Made by a program: the position numbers and the translations under genes
Shown: in pieces, positions 1,017 through 48,399 of the stretch
Layout: the number at the start of each line of letters is the position of its first letter
Position numbering within the stretch: position 1 is the stretch's first letter
Assembly (NCBI GenBank): GCA_964016885.1
Contig: OZ024742.1
Coordinates: 275,776,001 to 275,840,000, forward strand
Origin: Eledone cirrhosa
Taxonomy: Eukaryota
Direction of reading: 5' to 3'
DNA: 64,000 nucleotides
The notes under the pieces: generated by a model
What the model saw: only the letters and a program-made list of their open reading frames with translations
What the model was told of the DNA's origin: nothing
Databases searched by the model: none

Positions 1017-1361
1017 AACGGCTGCGTGTTCGTATCACGTCAGGGTTACCAATATAGCGAGAGTACTGGGTTGTATGAATGTAACAAAACAAGGCATGGT
1101 TTGTGTGTATAATATTTAATTAACAATGGTAGATAGTATAGTTGACATGTCAAAGAAATAGATGATAGAATGAAACAAAGTTAGTCGTTACCGTTTTGAT
1201 TGCCAGGCAAACGCGGCTGGCAGAGGACGCCAGGCGCCGGAAGGCCAAATGAGAGGCAGAGAGCCGAGAGCTATTCGTTTTATAGGGCTCTGCCGGAAGT
1301 TACAGAAAGGGTTCTACTTCCCGTCTAGATGTTAATCCAAACAAGGGAGACAACCGCTACA
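1017..1361 (-). mobile_element. LTR (~310 bp) plus extended tRNA-Trp primer-binding sequence, inserted in the hAT transposase
   Basis: Absent from the paralogous site (38466 GCTCTAAAAGTGAAAGG). Minus strand starts TGTAGCGG and ends TCGCTATA, then T-TGGTAACCCTGACGTGATACGAACACGCAGCC. Homologous to 13971-14314. Confidence 0.8.
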
Positions 1362-10819: not shown

Positions 10820-13046
10820 CATCATCATCATCATCATCACCGTTTTACGTCCGTTCTTCCACGCTAGCATGGGTTAGACGGGTTGTCCTGTTGTGGGCAG
10901 TGTCTGGTCGGCTGACCATGCCTTGCTCATACAGGAACTGATCTGGCTTGATTTCTACAGCTGGATGCCCTTCCTAACACCAACCTCATTTACAGTGAGT
11001 GCTGGGTGCTTTTTCGTGGCGCCTACACGTCCACTTTACAGTGTGGGCTGGGTGCTTTTTTGCCGTGGCACCTCCACGACCACCTTGCGGTGGGGGGGGG
11101 GGGGCGTATTGTTTATATGCTTCAGCATGTACCCATGGGAGGTCGGGTACCCTGTATTACTGCGTGACGCCAGAAGTCACGGTCGTGTGTCATTGACTTT
11201 GAGAGGTGTAGTTGGGTAAGGTCGGCTTTTATCACCTCATCCCAAGTCATCTTGGGTCTCCCCACTCCGCGGTTTCCATCAACTTCTAGTGCTCTGCACC
11301 TTTTTATGCAGCTGTCATCCTTCATACGCATCACATGTCCATACCAGCGTAACCGCCTCTCCTGCACGCAGCATTTGATTCCTCTTATGCTCAGTCTCTC
11401 TCTCAATTCCTTTATGCTTTGTCGTTCACGTATATTACTGTTACACATCCATCGGAGCATGCAGGCTTCGTTTCTCTCTAATCTACGTAAGTCTTCCACC
11501 TTCAGCGCCCAGGTCTCACTACCATGCAACATCGCTGTTCGGATACACGCATCATAGTCTGCCTTTCATTCTGAGGGAGAAGCCTTTTGCAGCTAGCAGT
11601 GGTAGTAGTTCCCTAAACTTCTTCCATCCCGTTCTTACCCTAGTTATTGTACTTTCTGAGCACCCACCTCCGTTGCTAATTCGGTCACCTAGGTAGCAGA
11701 AGCTGTCTACTGTTTCTACAGGGCCCTCCCAGAGATTGGTGGTACTTGTTTCCTGTGGCTGTTTGCTTGCTGTTTCAGCACAGCTGCTGCATGTGAATCC
11801 TACATTCTTAATTAAGCTTCCTGAGATCCCGCTACATCTCTTGTGTACCCATTGTTTGCATTTGGGGCAGAGAATGGAGTTCCTACCTACACCTTTCCTA
11901 CATACTGAGCAAGGCCATTTCCCTGAGGGGATCTGGGTTCTGTTTTCTCGTCTACTTATAAGGACCTTAGTCTTTGTCACGTTGACTTTGAGGCCCTTTC
12001 TCTCTAGTCCCTGCTTCCAGGTTTGGAATTTATTCTCTAGTTCTACCATAGATTCAGCTATGAGTGCGAGGTCATCAGCATACAGGAGTTCCCATGGGCA
12101 TCCGGTCTTAAACTCCTCCGTTATTGCCTGCAGGACTATGATGAACAGGAGAGGGCTAAGAACAGAGCCCTGGTGGACCCCAACCTGTACGCTAAATTCC
12201 TCGCTATACTCATTGCCAATCCTAACTTTGCTGACTGCTCCCCTATACATGGCTTGTACCGCTTTCACAAGCCATTCATCTACTCCTAGTTTTCTAAGAG
12301 CCCACCAGATTACTGCACGTGGAACTCTGTCAAAGGCTTTCTCAAGGTCGACAAATGCCAAGTAGAGTGGCTTACTTTTAGCTAGGTACTTTTCCTGTAA
12401 TTGCCTCACAAGGAAGAGGGCATCAGTGGTGCCTTTCCCTGGTACAAACCCAAATTGCATCTCGTCTATATTCACCCGGTCCCTAATCAGCTGTGCTATA
12501 ACTCTTTCTGTTACTTTCATGACCTGGTCCATCAACTTTATACCTCTATAGTTTCCTCTATCTAGTGCATCGCCTTTACCTTTGTAGCAGTTGACAATGA
12601 TGCTACTGCACCAATCTTTTGGTATGGCCCCCTCTAGTATTACCTGGTTAACGATACGTGTGACCTACAGACCCAGATGCCTTCAGCATCTCGGCAGCTA
12701 TACCCGATGGACCGGTTGCCTTCCCTATCTTCATATCTCTGATTGCCTTACTTACTACGCTGCCGCTGACTTGTACTGCTGGTCCCTCTATAGGGTCTAC
12801 GTGGGGTAGGGTCTCTTCTTCCCATGCATTCTCCTCATTTAGTAATCTATCATAATGTCTCTTCCATGCATCTTTCTTCTCAGCACTTGTGAGGGCAAGC
12901 TCACCTTTATCATTCCGGATACACTTCTCTCCAATGACATCACAACTATCTCTGACACATTGCCTCGCAATCTTGAATACCTCCTGTTTCTGGTCCTCAC
13001 GTTGTAAAACATGCTTGAATTTTCTATCCTCTGCTTCCCTCCTAGC
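10820..13046 (-). mobile_element. Young 5'-truncated RTE-clade LINE
   Basis: RT ORF 11552-12535 (AFVDLEKAFDRVP, GVHQGSVLSP, LYADD) continues in 11122-11532. 3'UTR and (ATG)n tail at 10820. Confidence 0.95.
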
Positions 13047-13970: not shown

Positions 13971-15380
13971 TGTAGCAGTTGTCTCCCTTGTTGTGATTAA
14001 CAACATCTAGACGGGAAGTAGAACCCTTTCTGTAACTTCCGGTCAGAACCCTATAAAACTAACAACTTTAAGTTCTCACTCTCATTTGCCCTTCCGGTGC
14101 CTGGCCTTTGCCAGGCGTCTCGCGTTTGCCTGGCAATCAAAACGGTAACTACTAACTTTGCTTCATTCTATCATCTATTTCTTTGACATGTCAACTATAC
14201 TGTTAAATTGTTAATTAAATATTATACACACAAACCATGTCACCGTGTTACATTCATACAACCCAGTTCTCCGCTATATTGGTAACCCTGATGTGATACG
14301 AACACGCAGCCGTTCATTGTTATAAGTGGTCACCCCGAAAAAAGAAAAAAATAGCAGAATCTGGTGTTGTGTGAGTAACATTACGAATACACAGGAAATT
14401 TATTTACAAACTATGAAAATACTCAGTCAAAGAAACGAACACACCACGCACATGTGAAACTTTCGTGCAGACAGACTTTTTCTCTCACGCATCAACTAAC
14501 TGTCGCATTTAACGATATATATATATGTTTCTCGTTTCTTACAACGAACACTTTCAAAAAAAAAAAAAAAAAAAAAGAAAAAGAAATTTGATATTTTTTT
14601 TTTTAGAAACATTTCAACAGGAACATTTATTTTCGATGAACCATTGCCTTTTTTTTTTCATCGTTCAAGTTTTTTTTTAAAGTTCACACCAACAATTATG
14701 CTAAGTGAAGCCCTTCTTTTTCATCATTGTCACTTTTACACTTGCACTATCATTTTCTCGCGCGTTAGAAATATTATTTTCGACTCATAGAGATAGCCGC
14801 ACACCAGAGATAATGTTTCTCGCCAAGGATTCTTCAGCCTTAAGCTATATTCTCCTATTTGCCGGTTTAAAAATTTACCACGTAAATTTGCCGTTGAAAA
14901 CTGCGCATTTATTCAGAATGCTTATTTCTTTGGTCGCTGGCCTCTTGACCCTTCCAGGTCAACGCATTCTCAACATCGACCATCAACTTCGGCTGTTATT
15001 TCTAGCACTTTGCAAGTCATTTTTTTCTGAAAAAATTTTTTTTTTACTGTGAGACAACAACAACAACAGCAACACAGCTTCACCAACAACCAAAACCAGC
15101 AGAACAAGCCAGAGAATTTATTTTTGCAGCACTCTTCCTGTGAGAAAATCCATTCGGAGGTTTGAAATTTCACGATATACCACAGAACAGAAACCACCTG
15201 CATTCATTCTCTGGAACACACTTTCTTTCCTGCTGTCATGTGATTGCACACCTGTGAACTATATTTTGTACATTTGAACTTTGAGCTCTTCTCTTACGTT
15301 ATTACATTGTATCTTTGGGTGATGGATAGATAGATGTCCAGTCGTTCTCTGGCCAAGAGCGGTTGGCTACCTTGACATCT
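13971..15380 (+). mobile_element. LTR retrotransposon remnant: 5' LTR (13971-14278), extended tRNA-Trp PBS (14280-14311), second PBS-like motif (14327-14338), non-coding internal region
   Basis: TGTAGC(A/G)G...CCGCTATA terminal inverted repeat with TGG-starting PBS 1 nt after the LTR. Interrupts the RTE ORF. No 3' LTR seen; right boundary approximate. Confidence 0.7.
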
Positions 15381-15879
15381 ATCATTGATGTGACAACTTA
15401 CTGCAGGCTACTGAAGAAACTTGTGGCTGGAGCAGAGCTCCAACCAGACAGAGGTGACCTGGTGGTGGAACAGCATGGTAGATAGGGCCATTAAAGACAA
15501 AAGACTAGCATGGAAGGCTTGGAAAAATGGTGGGAGTAGAGACTGATACACAGCCGTTAAAAGAGAAGCTAGACATCAGGTGTACTTAGCATGCAGGGAA
15601 GCTGAGAGTAAGATGTTTGTCAATGTTCTGCGACGAGAAGATCAGAGACATGCGGTTTTCCACATTGCAAGGCAGTGTCAGTGTAAATTAAGATGTTGTT
15701 GGAGATAAGTGTGTCCGGAATGATGCGGGTGTACTTAGTGTCACTGATGCTCAGAAAAAGGAGGCCTGGAAATGTGATTTTGAGAGACTGATGAATATTG
15801 AGAATGAATGGGAGAGAGAGAAACTACCCCCAATAGACCAGACAGAGGGACCAGCTATTGAGATTGACGACTATAGGGT

Positions 15880-25583: not shown

Positions 25584-27377
25584 TCAAAGATCTCCCACAA
25601 TATGCATGTGCTTGTGTTTAGTTAGGGCGCTATCTTCAGAGAATGATTTACCACAGATATCACAGTGATATGGCTTTTCGCCTGTATGCATACGTTTATG
25701 TATAATTAAGGTACTATTTCGAGAATATGATTTGTCACAGATATCACAGGGATATGGCTTGTCTCCTGTATGAATATATTTGTGGGTTGTTAAATCACTA
25801 CTTTGAGAAAATGATTTACCACATATGTCACAGTAAAATGGCTTCTCTCCTGTATGAGTACGTATGTGGTTTGTTAAGGGAGTTTTATCAGAGAATGATT
25901 TACCACAAATGACACAGTGATATGGTTTCTCACCTGTGTGAATGCGTTTATGTCTAGTTAAGACATTTGTATGAGAGAATGACATGCCACAGATATCACA
26001 AAGATATAATTTATCTCTTGTATGAACACGTTTGTGTTTAGTTAAGTCACCACTTCGAAGGAATGATTTACCACAGACATCACAGTGATATGGCTTTTCT
26101 CCTGTATGAGTACGTATGTGTACAACTAATTCACTACCTCTAGAGCATGATTTACCACAGATATCACAGCGATTTGGCTGCTCACCTGTATGAATACGTT
26201 TATGATTGGTTAAGGTACCGCCTTCAGTGAATGACTTACCACAGATATCACACTGATAAGGCTTCTCTCCTGTATGAATACGCTTGTGTATAGTTAATTT
26301 ACTTCCTATAGAAAATGATTTACCACAGCTGTCACATTGATATGGTTTCTCTTTTATATGTATGGGTTTGTGTATAGTTAATTTAGTATTTGTAAATAAT
26401 AATTTACCACCGATGTCACAGTGAGTTTGCTTTTTTCTTGAATGAATGCATTTGTGATTAGTTAAGGTACCACCTTCAGAGAATGTTTCACCACAGATAT
26501 CACAATGATATGGCTTTTCTTCCGAAGGAGTATGTTTGTGCATACCTAACACATGGCTACGTTTGTGTATAGTTAAAATACTTCCAGTGGAGTAGGATTT
26601 ACCACAGATATCACAGTGATATCGTTTCTCTCCTGCATGAATACGTTTGTGTTTGGTTAAATCACCACTCTGAAAGACAGATATACCACAGATATCACAT
26701 TGATATGGCTTTACACCTGTATGCCACTCTTTGTGTTTCTGCAAGTCTGAATTTCGGGAGAATGATTTACCACAGATATCACAGCAATATGGTTTTATGC
26801 CTGTATGAATGCTTTTGTGAAATATCAAGTTATATTTTTGGGAGAATGATTTACCACAGATATCACAGTGATATGGCTTCTCGCCTGTATGAGTACGTAT
26901 GTGTATAGTTAATCTTCCCTTTGCAGAAAATGATTTACCACATATATCACATTGATATGGTTTTATTCCTGTATGAATACGTTTGTGTTCAGTTAATATA
27001 TTATTTTGAGAGAATGATTTACCACAGATATCACAGTGATATGGCTTATCGCCTGAATGAATAAGCATGTGTACAGTTAAGCTTCTATTTGCAGTAAATG
27101 TATTACCACAGATATCACAGTGATATGGTTTCTCACCTGTATGAGTACGTATGTGTGTAGTTAAGTTTCCACTTGCAGAAAATGTTTTACCACAGATGTC
27201 GCAGTGATATGGTTTTATTCCTGTATGGATGCTTTTGTGAGCACTCAACGTATCTCTTCGAGAGAAGGATGAACCACAGGTATCACAGTGATATGGCATC
27301 TCGCCTATATGAGTATGCATGTGTACAGTTAAGTTTCCATTTGTAGAAAATGTTTTACCACAGATGTCACAGTTCAT
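25584..27377 (-). CDS. Tandem C2H2 zinc-finger protein, paralog A (21 fingers, one degenerate; no KRAB-like domain). Ancestral start at 27519 is out of frame.
   Basis: 597-aa open frame of CxxC..HxxxH-TGEKPY repeats. Splice acceptor TTTCTTTATTGTTTCAG ending at 27602 is conserved with paralog B. Confidence 0.85.
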
Positions 27378-27999
27378 GAGAATTCAGTTTATATATTTTG
27401 AATAATGATTTACAGTGGTATAATGTTTTTACTATCTTGTTCAGTACCTCACTAGGAGAATCATTTCTTTCAGACTCCGATTTAATCTTAACCTCTTTCT
27501 CCCATAATTCATTTTCCATAATATATATTTTTATATCTATTCTGTAGATGTTAAATATAGATGATGCATCTGATGTAAAGATTCTTTAATACCAATGTCA
27601 TCTGAAACAATAAAGAAATTCTATAAGATATACAGGATATTTGACATGTAGAGAATCAACCCCTTTTCTTGAGCTTCAAACCCTTTTCTTTAGGAAATAA
27701 AACATTCTTTTTTTCTCTGTTAATGAGATACTACATTGAAGGAATTTTTATTTAATTATAAAACCCCAACTATTTATCTTTTTCCATGAGTTTGTGTGGT
27801 GAACTACTTAACAAGACAGTCATACCTGCCACTGTATATCATTCATGTTCAGTTTCTTTACCAGACTTTATTTTCTTTCAAAACAAACTTGCCTAAAACT
27901 ACTTGAAATTTTTTTGATTTAATAATACCAAAACTGTTGAAAAACATTTTGGTTTCATAATACTAACCCACCTGAAATTACCCATTCATATTTAAATGA

Positions 28000-45918: not shown

Positions 45919-47943
45919 TCAAATTTTTCCAACAATATGCATGTGCTTGTGTCTAGTTAAGGTTCTATTTTCAGCGAATGATTTACCACAGATATCACAG
46001 TGACATGGCTTTTCGCCTGTATGCATACGTTTATGTATAATTAAGGTACTATTTCGAGAATATGATTTATCACAGATATCACAGGGGAATGGCTTGTCTC
46101 CTGTATGAATATATTTATGAGTTGTTAAATCACCACTTCGAGAAAACGTTTTACCACATATGTTACAGTGAAATGGCTTCTCTCCCGTATGAGTACGTAT
46201 GTGAGTTGTTAAGGGAGTTTTATCAGAGAATGATTTACCACAAATGATACAATGATATGGCTTCTCACCTGTGTGAATGCGTTTATGTCTAGTTAAGACA
46301 TTTGTATGAGAGAATGACATACCACAGATATCACAAAGATACAATTTATCTCTTGTATGAACACGTTTGTGTTTAGTTAAGTCACCACTTCGAGAGAATG
46401 ATTTACCACAGACATCACAGTGATATGGTTTTTCTCCTGTATGTATACGTTTGTGTTTAGTTAAAGAAGAATTCTGATTGAATGATTTCCCACAGATATC
46501 ACAATGATAACTTTTTAACCCTGTATGAATACCTTTGTGAGCTATCAAGGAAGCTGTTTCAGAAAATGATTTACCACAGATGCCACAGTGATACTTTTTT
46601 AAGCCTGTATGAATACTTCTGTGAACTATCAAGTTAGCTGTTTCAGAGAACGATTTACCACAGATGTCACAGCAATATGGTTTTATGCTTGTATGAATGT
46701 ATCTGTGATTATTTAAGCTACCACCTTCAGAGAATGTTTTACCACAGATATCACAGTGATATGGCTTTTCTCCTGTATGGATACGCCTGTGTGTATTGAA
46801 GCCACTTCTTCCTGAGAATGACTTACCACAGACATCACAACGATATGGCTTTTCCCCTGTATGAGTACGTTTGTGCATACCTAACACACAACTTCTAGAG
46901 AAAGATTTACCACAGATATCACAATGATATGGCTTCTCTCCTGTATGGATACGTTTGTGTATAGTTAAAATACTTCCTGTAGAATAGGATTTACCACAGA
47001 TATCACAGTGATATGGCTTTTCACCTGTATGAATACGTTTGTGTTTGGTTAAGTCCCCTTTCTCAAAGACAGATATACCACAGATATCACATTGAAATGG
47101 CTTTACACCTGTATGCCACTGTTTGTGTTTCTTTAAGTCTGAATTTCGGGAGAATGATTTACTACAGATGTCACAGCAATATGGTTTTATGCCTGTATGA
47201 ATGCTTTTGTGAAATGTCAAGTGATATTTTTGGGCGAATGATTTACCACAGATATCACAGTGATATGGCGTCTCACCTGTATGAGTACGTATGTGTATAG
47301 TTAAGCTTCCTTTTGCAGAAAATGTTTTACCACAGATGTCACAGTGATATGGTTTTATTCCTGTATGAATATGTTTGTGTTCAGTTAAAATATTATTTTG
47401 AGAGAATGTTTTACCACAGATATCACAGTGATATGGCTTCTCACCTGTATGAGTACGTATGTGTATAGTTAAGTTTGCATTTGTAGAGAATGATTTACCA
47501 CAGATGTCACAGTGATATGGCTTCTTTCTTTTATGGGTATGGTTGTGTATAGTTAAGTTTCCATTTGTAGAGAATGTTTTACCACAGATATCACAGTGAT
47601 ATGGCTTCTCACCTGTATGGGTATATTTGTGTATAGTTAAGTTTGTATTTGTAGAGAATGTTTTACCACAGATGTCACAGTGATATGGCTTCTCTCTTTT
47701 ATGGGTATGTTTGTGTCTAGTTAAATGACTGTCTTCAGAGAATGATTTACCACAGTGGTATGGCTTCTCTCCTATATTAGTATGTTCATGAGAATTCAGT
47801 TCATATTTTGGGGACAATGATTTACCAGTGATGCCAGAATGGTATGATGTTTTTCCTATCTCATTCAGTACCTCAATAGGAGAATCATTTCTTTCAGACT
47901 CCAATTTAATCTTAACCTCTTTCTCCCATAATTCATTTTCCAT
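45919..47943 (-). CDS. Tandem C2H2 zinc-finger protein, paralog B (21 intact fingers, acidic [16 protein letters not shown]-terminus)
   Basis: 674-aa intact ORF with TGEKPY linkers. Acceptor TTTCTTTATTATTTCAG ends at 48002. Confidence 0.95.
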
Positions 47944-48399
47944 ATCTTTTTTTTCACTCCTTTTTATATCCTTTCTGTCACTGTTAAATATTGGTGATAT
48001 TCTGAAATAATAAAGAAATTCTGTAAGATATATAGAATATTTGAAATGTAGTGATTCAACAATGGAAAGTTTACTATCTTTCTATACTGATAAACTAAAG
48101 ATATAAACATTTACCTGAAGAATTGATGATTACCTTTATTGAAAGAAGCAGCATCACTGGAGCTTCAAACCCTTTTCTTTAGGAAATACAACATTCTTCT
48201 TTCTCTGTTAATGAGATACCACCTTGAAGGAATTTTTATTTAATTATATGTACCCACTATTTATCTTTTTTCATGTGTTTGTGAGGTGAACTACAATGCA
48301 AGACAGTCAAACCTGTCCCTATATATCATTCATGATCAGAATAAGTCATGTTGTTTCTTTATCAGACTTTATTTATAACAAAACTGCCTGAAATCCCTT

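What the first reader, a model, noticed from the sequence alone, without database searches (positions are those of the whole stretch)
1019..1051. LTR with a 32-nt tRNA-Trp extension mismatched exactly at tRNA position 58: possible fossil of RT read-through of m1A58
Seen: directly next to the LTR end, the plus strand reads GGCT-GCGTG-TTCGTAT-CACGT-CAGGGTT-A-CCA (1020-1051). The same sequence is reversed at 14280-14311. Known: the eukaryotic tRNA-Trp 3' half is GG(C/T)T-GCGTG-TTCRAAT-CACGT-CGGGGTC-A-CCA. A normal PBS is at most 18 nt (positions 59-76) because m1A58 stops plus-strand copying of the primer. Here the match includes the non-genomic CCA, runs 13 nt past the stop through the T-arm into the variable loop, and position 58 (base 1033; 14298 in copy 2) is T instead of A. 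That is the site where RTs misincorporate opposite m1A. Two further differences lie in the acceptor stem. Inference: an ancestor copied the mature modified primer tRNA past m1A58 and the extension became heritable, since both diverged copies share it. The tRNA-half + CCA + antisense-LTR layout also resembles the proposed strong-stop route to tRNA-derived SINEs, and it carries a B-box-like T-loop.
Basis: partly seen in the sequence, partly recalled or inferred. Interest (0 to 1): 0.75.

Follow-up and report, generated by a model that had tools for sequence, protein, structure and literature searches.

The report
Retrotransposons fossilise over-copied primer tRNA
A jumping-gene family with about 500 copies in this animal genome carries an extra-long copy of the tRNA that starts its replication, with one wrong letter at the position where tRNAs usually carry a methyl mark, likely a frozen copying error; dozens of similar over-copies in other families likely record where that tRNA is chemically modified.

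Summary
Confirmed. Window 1020-1051 and 14280-14311 are tRNA-Trp 45-76 with non-genomic CCA, beside the LTR of a non-coding Gypsy (CsRn1-type) element of about 500 copies. Copy 1 differs from a host gene only at 58 and 72. T58 is inherited (0 copies with A58), while positions 67 and 72 vary like host isodecoders.

One family is one event, so the test came from other families. In 34 over-extended copies, position 58 is wrong in 11 (T6, C3, G2); no other site exceeds 3 (p about 6e-10). Copy ends cluster at 35-40 (17) and 27-29 (6), with none at 30-34; G37 is miscopied in 2 of 6. Metagenome records repeat the pattern. Coding two-LTR elements also carry such extensions.

Best reading: reverse transcriptase read through m1A58, and the product was rescued by a jump back to U5 and then inherited. 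The SINE idea is not supported. Against: one host gene has T58 (with A57), and host modifications were not measured. A 22-nt precedent is in print (mouse ETn/MusD), and this scan found the same family elsewhere in this genome (e1-10321918).

The parts
1053..1361 (-). LTR of copy 1 (ends TGT...ATA), 309 bp; the copy is cut 3 nt after the extension and has no clear target duplication
1034..1051 (-). Ordinary 18-nt PBS, antisense to tRNA-Trp 59-76 including CCA; A67 (1042) is a host isodecoder letter, T72 (1047) is the family's main allele
1020..1033 (-). 14-nt over-extension, antisense to tRNA-Trp 58-45; T58 at 1033
1017..1019 (-). First 3 nt of the family junction; copy 1 ends here
13971..14278 (+). 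5' LTR of copy 2
14280..14311 (+). PBS plus over-extension of copy 2 (tRNA 76-45); position 58 at 14298; extra change at 64
14317..14338 (+). Duplicate of the U5 end, 2-nt spacer and second 12-nt tRNA-Trp PBS
14339..15389 (+). Non-coding internal region of copy 2, lost before the polypurine tract and 3' LTR
   Evidence: 78-79% identity to the intact copy in L185

Best explanation
This is the primer-binding region of a non-coding Gypsy LTR retrotransposon whose ancestor's reverse transcriptase likely copied the primer tRNA-Trp past the normal stop at m1A58, likely misread that base, and likely rescued the over-long plus strand by jumping back to the end of U5, after which the extension was inherited. 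Shown: the anatomy; fixed T58; variation at 67 and 72; excess errors at 58 and clustered ends in other families. Inferred, in order: (1) plus-strand strong-stop DNA ran to about position 45; (2) dATP went in opposite m1A58; (3) the unpaired 3' end re-primed at the U5 end and recopied 12 nt of primer, which gave a PBS able to transfer; (4) descendants now stop at 58 as usual, so 59-76 is sometimes renewed from the primer while 58-45 passes through the RNA; (5) the clustered ends elsewhere mark m1G37 and a methylated G26.
For: Non-genomic CCA plus a 30 of 32 match to host gene L044. 34 over-extended copies outside the family (37 hits, minus 2 family copies and 1 duplicate hairpin arm): position 58 is A23/T6/C3/G2, other sites have at most 3 changes each, p=6e-10 at a 2.6% background; one-off copies alone 7 of 27, p=5e-6. 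Without the three copies that match the T58 host gene: 8 of 31, p=1e-6. Of 23 one-off copies ending at or before 40, 17 end at 35-40, 0 at 30-34, 6 at 27-29 and 0 below 27. G37 is wrong in 2 of 6 copies that span it. Metagenome records: 4 of 16 non-A58, with ends at 27, 27, 28 (T37) and 38. One-off jumps back to U5 with 8-24 nt matches in L103, L039, L128 and L132. A 22-nt direct repeat of U5 end plus PBS in L068 and L210. A 101-bp hairpin with its apex at the anticodon loop in L109. Family copies with non-T at 58: 8, all C, none A. T72 goes with A67 in 99 of 100 listed, C72 with G67 in 63 of 100 listed. In L067 the LTR-proximal PBS is host-like and its tandem duplicate keeps T72/A67. m1A, m1G37 and m2,2G26 give mismatches and stops with reverse transcriptases (PMC4787781, PMC5066629; passages).
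Against: For this family T58 is a single event and could be an ordinary mutation or come from a lost gene. One host gene has A57/T58. Under the strictest collapse (one-offs without any A57/T58 copy) the signal is 4 of 24, p=0.003. The search left 58 free but allowed only one mismatch elsewhere, so the background was estimated, not counted. End positions are uncertain by about 2 nt through chance matches, and the scoring gave position 37 a free pass. Host tRNA modifications were not measured. PBS haplotypes are partly clustered on the family tree (17 changes, shuffled mean 23.1; well-supported branches force only 2-3 per label; biased sample), so some variation at 67 and 72 is subfamily descent. 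The extension is better conserved than the LTR or leader (0.008 against 0.053 and 0.078), which a purely neutral fossil does not predict. In yeast Ty1/Ty3 the PBS is not inherited from the primer (PMC5371799).
Confidence: 0.8

Rival explanations
1. The over-extension is real, but T58 is a faithful copy of a variant tRNA-Trp with U58, which cannot carry m1A and would be read through freely.
For: One host gene with T58 exists (L231). 3 of the 6 T58 copies outside the family share its A57/C47 letters. Errors at 58 are commoner with A57 (8 of 14) than with G57 (3 of 20), p=0.02.
Against: The family has G57, and no G57/T58 gene was found (3 hits: two over-copies and L231). No C58 or G58 gene was found, yet 5 of the 11 errors are C or G, and all 4 metagenome errors are G or C. 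L231 also has a D-stem change.
Confidence: 0.1
2. Whatever its origin, the extension is now kept by selection: it lets the element pair with 32 nt of the primer, or the mismatches at 58 and 72 help it escape silencing by 3' tRNA fragments. This can hold together with the best explanation.
For: 1 difference in 17 copies x 14 nt where 6-9 are expected, p about 0.013-0.001. The predicted duplex energy doubles from -28 to -57 kcal/mol. Coding families also keep extensions. PBS mismatches relieve tRF silencing in MusD (bioRxiv 10.1101/2025.05.12.650695).
Against: The U5 duplicate and second PBS are as conserved (0.011), so the constraint may be regional. The 17 copies were top BLAST hits to a query that included the extension, and they are related. 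A second family passes on a non-tRNA letter at 52 in 15 of 36 copies. Related elements replicate with 18 nt.
Confidence: 0.3
3. The stretch is a piece of a tRNA gene, pseudogene or tRNA-derived SINE recombined next to the PBS, and T58 is an ordinary mutation.
For: The genome has dozens of tRNA-Trp gene copies, in tandem arrays.
Against: The match is colinear with the PBS and includes CCA. It recurs behind many unrelated LTR ends (37 clusters among 163 PBS sites), with ends clustered at known reverse-transcriptase blocks. No SINE anatomy was seen.
Confidence: 0.04

Closest known systems
Mouse ETn/MusD 22-nt PBS with A-to-C at m1A58 (bioRxiv 10.1101/2025.05.12.650695; passages)
   Same: Inherited complementarity past 18 nt with a fixed mismatch at position 58, which the authors ascribe to misincorporation; a non-coding element with a coding helper.
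   Different: 22 nt there, 32-50 nt here. There it is one fixed allele; here dozens of separate junctions allow a statistical test, show ends near 37 and 26, and show rescue by U5 re-priming or fold-back.
Lentiviral primer over-extension sequence and HIV-1 plus-strand stops (PMC13191261 section 10 read in full; PMC8599865 passages)
   Same: Reverse transcriptase can pass m1A58; minor products end at 55, 54 and the modified base 37.
   Different: Products longer than position 54 are described as unable to transfer or integrate. Here copies reaching 45, 37 and 27 are in the genome, and some founded families.
CsRn1 clade of Ty3/Gypsy elements (PwRn1, AgCR; PMC2582038 section 6 read in full plus passages)
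   Same: tRNA-Trp PBS, 4-bp target duplication, TGT...ATA/AAA ends, and CX2HX9CX3C gag motif in the coding relatives.
   Different: The window element is non-coding. The text that I read describes only a short PBS; its supplementary PBS alignment is an image that I did not see.
Dead-end plus-strand strong-stop DNA of yeast Ty1/Ty3 (PMC5371799 passages)
   Same: A tRNA-tailed single-LTR plus strand accumulates as a by-product; many one-off loci here look like one LTR plus a tRNA copy.
   Different: Ty3 copies 12 nt and its PBS is not inherited from the primer; here the copies are longer and positions 67 and 72 follow host isodecoders.

Membership tests
CsRn1-clade Ty3/Gypsy (non-autonomous member) | PBS for tRNA-Trp | tested here: met
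   definition
CsRn1-clade Ty3/Gypsy (non-autonomous member) | 4-bp target duplication | tested here: met
   4 of 4 two-LTR copies checked; 5 of 7 solo LTRs that the script located, of 9 given
CsRn1-clade Ty3/Gypsy (non-autonomous member) | LTR ends TGT...ACA/AAA/ATA and a polypurine tract before the 3' LTR | tested here: met
CsRn1-clade Ty3/Gypsy (non-autonomous member) | CHCC (CX2HX9CX3C) gag and PR-RT-RH-IN order | tested here: inconclusive
   The element itself has no matching ORF. The motif was found in 7 of 12 coding loci searched and the domain order in L184 and L187. The link is through L201, which shares LTR patches (73-79%) and 490 nt of internal sequence (82%) with the family.
CsRn1-clade Ty3/Gypsy (non-autonomous member) | Reverse-transcriptase phylogeny with CsRn1 reference elements | not tested
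   no reference sequences were fetched
tRNA-derived SINE | Internal Pol III promoter (A box plus B box) | tested here: not met
   A-box-like motif in 3 of 53 copies at up to 1 mismatch (consensus recalled). T58 breaks the conserved A of the B box (recalled).
tRNA-derived SINE | LINE-type 3' tail and variable-length target duplication | tested here: not met
   two-LTR and solo-LTR structures with 4-bp duplications
Primer over-extension sequence (lentiviral type) | tRNA complementarity directly downstream of the 18-nt PBS | tested here: met
   14 nt here
Primer over-extension sequence (lentiviral type) | Used to accept over-extended plus strands at transfer | tested here: inconclusive
   No A58 among the 8 non-T family copies argues against recopying in this family. 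Two coding families vary at 58 among 94-95% identical copies, which hints at recopying there; n is small.

The most novel reading that the evidence does not exclude
Animal genomes hold a readable fossil tRNA-sequencing record. CsRn1-type reverse transcriptases often read through m1A58, stop before m1G37 and a methylated G26, and leave error spectra that map germ-line tRNA modifications without any RNA sample. Over-extended products, described as dead ends for HIV, are rescued by U5 re-priming or fold-back and become heritable 32-40 nt primer sites that selection keeps, and that are recopied from the tRNA in some coding families.
Probability: 0.4. Interest if true: 0.7.

Novelty: new variant of a known kind. 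Interest (0 to 1): 0.5.

Why it matters
The retroviral literature read here treats copying far past m1A58 as lethal to integration. This genome shows such products integrated dozens of times and founding at least four families, three of them with gag or gag-pol frames. The error and stop pattern gives a DNA-only way to predict tRNA modification sites in animals that lack tRNA sequencing, and one tRNA-seq run can test it. It also allows a per-copy test of which PBS bases are inherited from the primer in a metazoan Gypsy element, where yeast Ty elements and retroviruses differ. The idea of a frozen error at position 58 is not new (ETn/MusD).

Tried and rejected
Rfam on 900-1400 gave only one chance hit (E 1.2), and ARAGORN found no tRNA gene in the window. 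SINE reading rejected. Host gene as source of T72: 2 hits with non-C72, neither with A67, so T72 is taken as an element mutation. A PBS-hiding hairpin: z -2.8 in one C72 copy but -0.07 and -0.9 in two T72 copies, so inconclusive. Tree of the six-copy coding family: two long branches, cannot count separate origins of T58; some pairwise values there are end-gap artefacts. Target duplications at the one-off jumps to U5 lie mostly in TA repeats and are uninformative. Expression: no RNA holder listed; no reads were laid. Of 19 metagenome loci, 3 were dropped before the count: two tRNA-Glu genes and one whole tRNA-Trp; two of the remaining 16 are duplicates, and only 1 showed a gag-like motif within 600 nt. 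Paper searches found no report of genomic over-extensions beyond 22 nt in LTR retrotransposons. The library lacks most subscription papers and Repbase, and bioRxiv supplements are closed, so this is weak. The strong-stop route to SINEs is recalled; one search did not return a paper on it.

Full report
Observation. Window 1020-1051 reads as tRNA-Trp 45-76 with CCA and T at 58 (base 1033), one base from a 309-bp LTR on the minus strand. A second copy lies at 14280-14311 with one more change, at 64. The 17-nt core has 2 window matches against 0.11 expected. A pattern for the T arm with A58 found 103 places in the genome. Of the first 20 fetched, 2 were tRNA-Trp genes and 18 were tRNA 3' pieces, most ending in CCA, beside LTR-like ends. 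Copy 1 differs from gene L044 only at 58 and 72.

The element. The LTR has 2128 first-look candidates in the genome, of which 40 were scored. Full copies are about 1.9-2.1 kb: two LTRs ending TGT...ATA, a polypurine tract, a non-coding interior and 4-bp target duplications. One copy has identical LTRs, so the family was active recently. Copy 1 in the window is cut 3 nt after the extension; copy 2 runs to 15389 and lacks its 3' LTR. About 500 copies carry the extension: 395 with T72 and most of 131 with C72 (29 of the 30 fetched have the family junction). After the extension comes a duplicate of the U5 end and a second, 12-nt PBS in 45 of 55 sites; in L068 and L210 it is a 22-nt direct repeat of the copy's own U5-PBS junction. 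L201 has a related LTR and interior, an ordinary 18-nt PBS and gag-protease frames like those of the coding element L184. These features fit the CsRn1 clade as defined in PMC2582038 (section 6). No reverse-transcriptase tree was built.

What is inherited. Position 58 is T in 98 of the 100 listed T72 copies. A search for family copies with any other base gave 8, all C and none A. Positions 67 and 72 vary: T72 goes with A67 in 99 of 100 listed, C72 with G67 in 63 of 100 listed (my count of the list, which holds a few non-family rows; test). On a tree of 49 of 55 family sites the PBS types need 17 changes against a shuffled mean of 23.1, so they are mixed but partly clustered, and the sample was biased. 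In L067 the PBS next to the LTR is host-like while its tandem duplicate keeps T72/A67. I infer that present-day copying stops at 58, that 59-76 is sometimes renewed from the primer, and that T58 is a one-time fossil.

The test of misincorporation. A pattern for 42-76 with CCA, 58 free and one mismatch elsewhere gave 37 hits. After dropping 2 family copies and one arm of a hairpin, 34 remain: A23, T6, C3, G2 at position 58, and at most 3 changes at any other site. With a background of 2.6% per site p is 6e-10; for the 27 one-off copies, 7 of 27, p is 5e-6. A search for host genes without A58 found one, L231, with A57/T58. Removing the three copies that match it leaves 8 of 31 (p 1e-6); the strictest set gives 4 of 24 (p 0.003). 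Among 23 one-off copies that end at or before 40, 17 end at 35-40, none at 30-34, 6 at 27-29 and none lower. G37 is miscopied in 2 of 6 copies that span it. These are the sites where m1A58, m1G37 and m2,2G26 give errors and stops in tRNA sequencing (PMC4787781 and PMC5066629, passages). That the host tRNA-Trp has them is inferred. One metagenome scan gave 19 loci; 16 remained after dropping three tRNA genes, 4 with G or C at 58, and ends at 27, 27, 28 and 38 among them.

How over-long products survive. One-off loci show jumps back to the U5 end with 8-24 nt matches (L103, L039, L128, L132), a fold-back at the anticodon stem giving 101-bp arms (L109), two opposed PBS sites (L174, L175) and plain joins to flanking DNA. 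Three other families keep extensions and carry gag or gag-pol frames: to 37-38 (L184), to 45 (L187, L188, L189, L200; 36 copies with 34 A58 and 2 G58) and to 44 (L190, L191). Ordinary PBS sites are also common: 195 hits of a pattern that excludes most extensions.

Results that qualify the fossil reading. In 17 BLAST-picked copies the extension differs at 0.008 per site against 0.053 in the LTR and 0.078 in the leader. This hints at constraint, though the adjacent duplicate is as conserved and the sample is biased. In two coding families, copies 94-95% alike differ at 58, which hints at repeated read-through there.

Comparison. Mouse ETn/MusD has a 22-nt PBS with A-to-C at m1A58 that the authors ascribe to misincorporation (bioRxiv 10.1101/2025.05.12.650695, passages). 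HIV has minor stops at 55, 54 and 37, and products beyond 54 are described as non-productive (PMC13191261 section 10; PMC8599865 passages). Ty1/Ty3 make dead-end tRNA-tailed plus strands and do not inherit the PBS from the primer (PMC5371799 passages). Eight paper searches found no account of longer genomic over-extensions; coverage is limited, and supplements of PMC2582038 (image) and of the preprint were not seen. The scan's own notes hold the same family and reading from another piece of this genome (looked up after my reading was formed) and related fold-back cases. They are not independent support.

Verdict. The feature is real and the main interpretation holds (0.8); the SINE link does not. 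New variant of a known kind; interest 0.5.

Noticed in passing
L163 (G000:C1:74761489): One extra base is inserted exactly at position 58 of an over-extended copy, another possible stall mark.
   Followed up: no
L109/L110 (G000:C10:53056915-53056997): A 200-bp palindrome of LTR end plus tRNA copy with its apex at the anticodon loop; both arms carry T58.
   Followed up: partly
L174, L175: The family's 5' end is joined head to head to a different LTR through two opposed tRNA-Trp PBS sites.
   Followed up: no
G000:C4:353.39-353.49 Mb and 277.41-277.44 Mb: Tandem arrays of tRNA-Trp genes and degenerate copies; the first holds the single T58 gene L231.
   Followed up: partly
L062/L063, L067: The U5-end/PBS/extension unit is tandemly doubled in some family copies.
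   Followed up: partly
family LTR, last 30 nt: The U5 tip is twice as variable as the LTR body (0.109 against 0.053).
   Followed up: no
window 14355-14368: The leader has a 7-8 nt match to the antisense of the anticodon arm in 11 of 53 copies; it may be chance.
   Followed up: partly
over-extended copies, position 47: T47 with G57 occurs in several events (L091, L093, L115, L049 and the 36-copy family) although no such host gene was seen among the 100 of 103 listed matches.
   Followed up: no
L220: A nearly whole tRNA-Trp followed by CCA in a metagenome record: either a gene or a complete read-through.
   Followed up: no
window 25584-27383 and 45919-48081 (-): Two long tandem C2H2 zinc-finger exons, part of a local duplication.
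   Followed up: partly
window 11552-12664 (-): A reverse-transcriptase frame with a PHD finger, likely a LINE relic.
   Followed up: no
window about 250-2200: Copy 1 interrupts what looks like a decayed hAT-type transposase (judged by eye, recalled, not tested).
   Followed up: no
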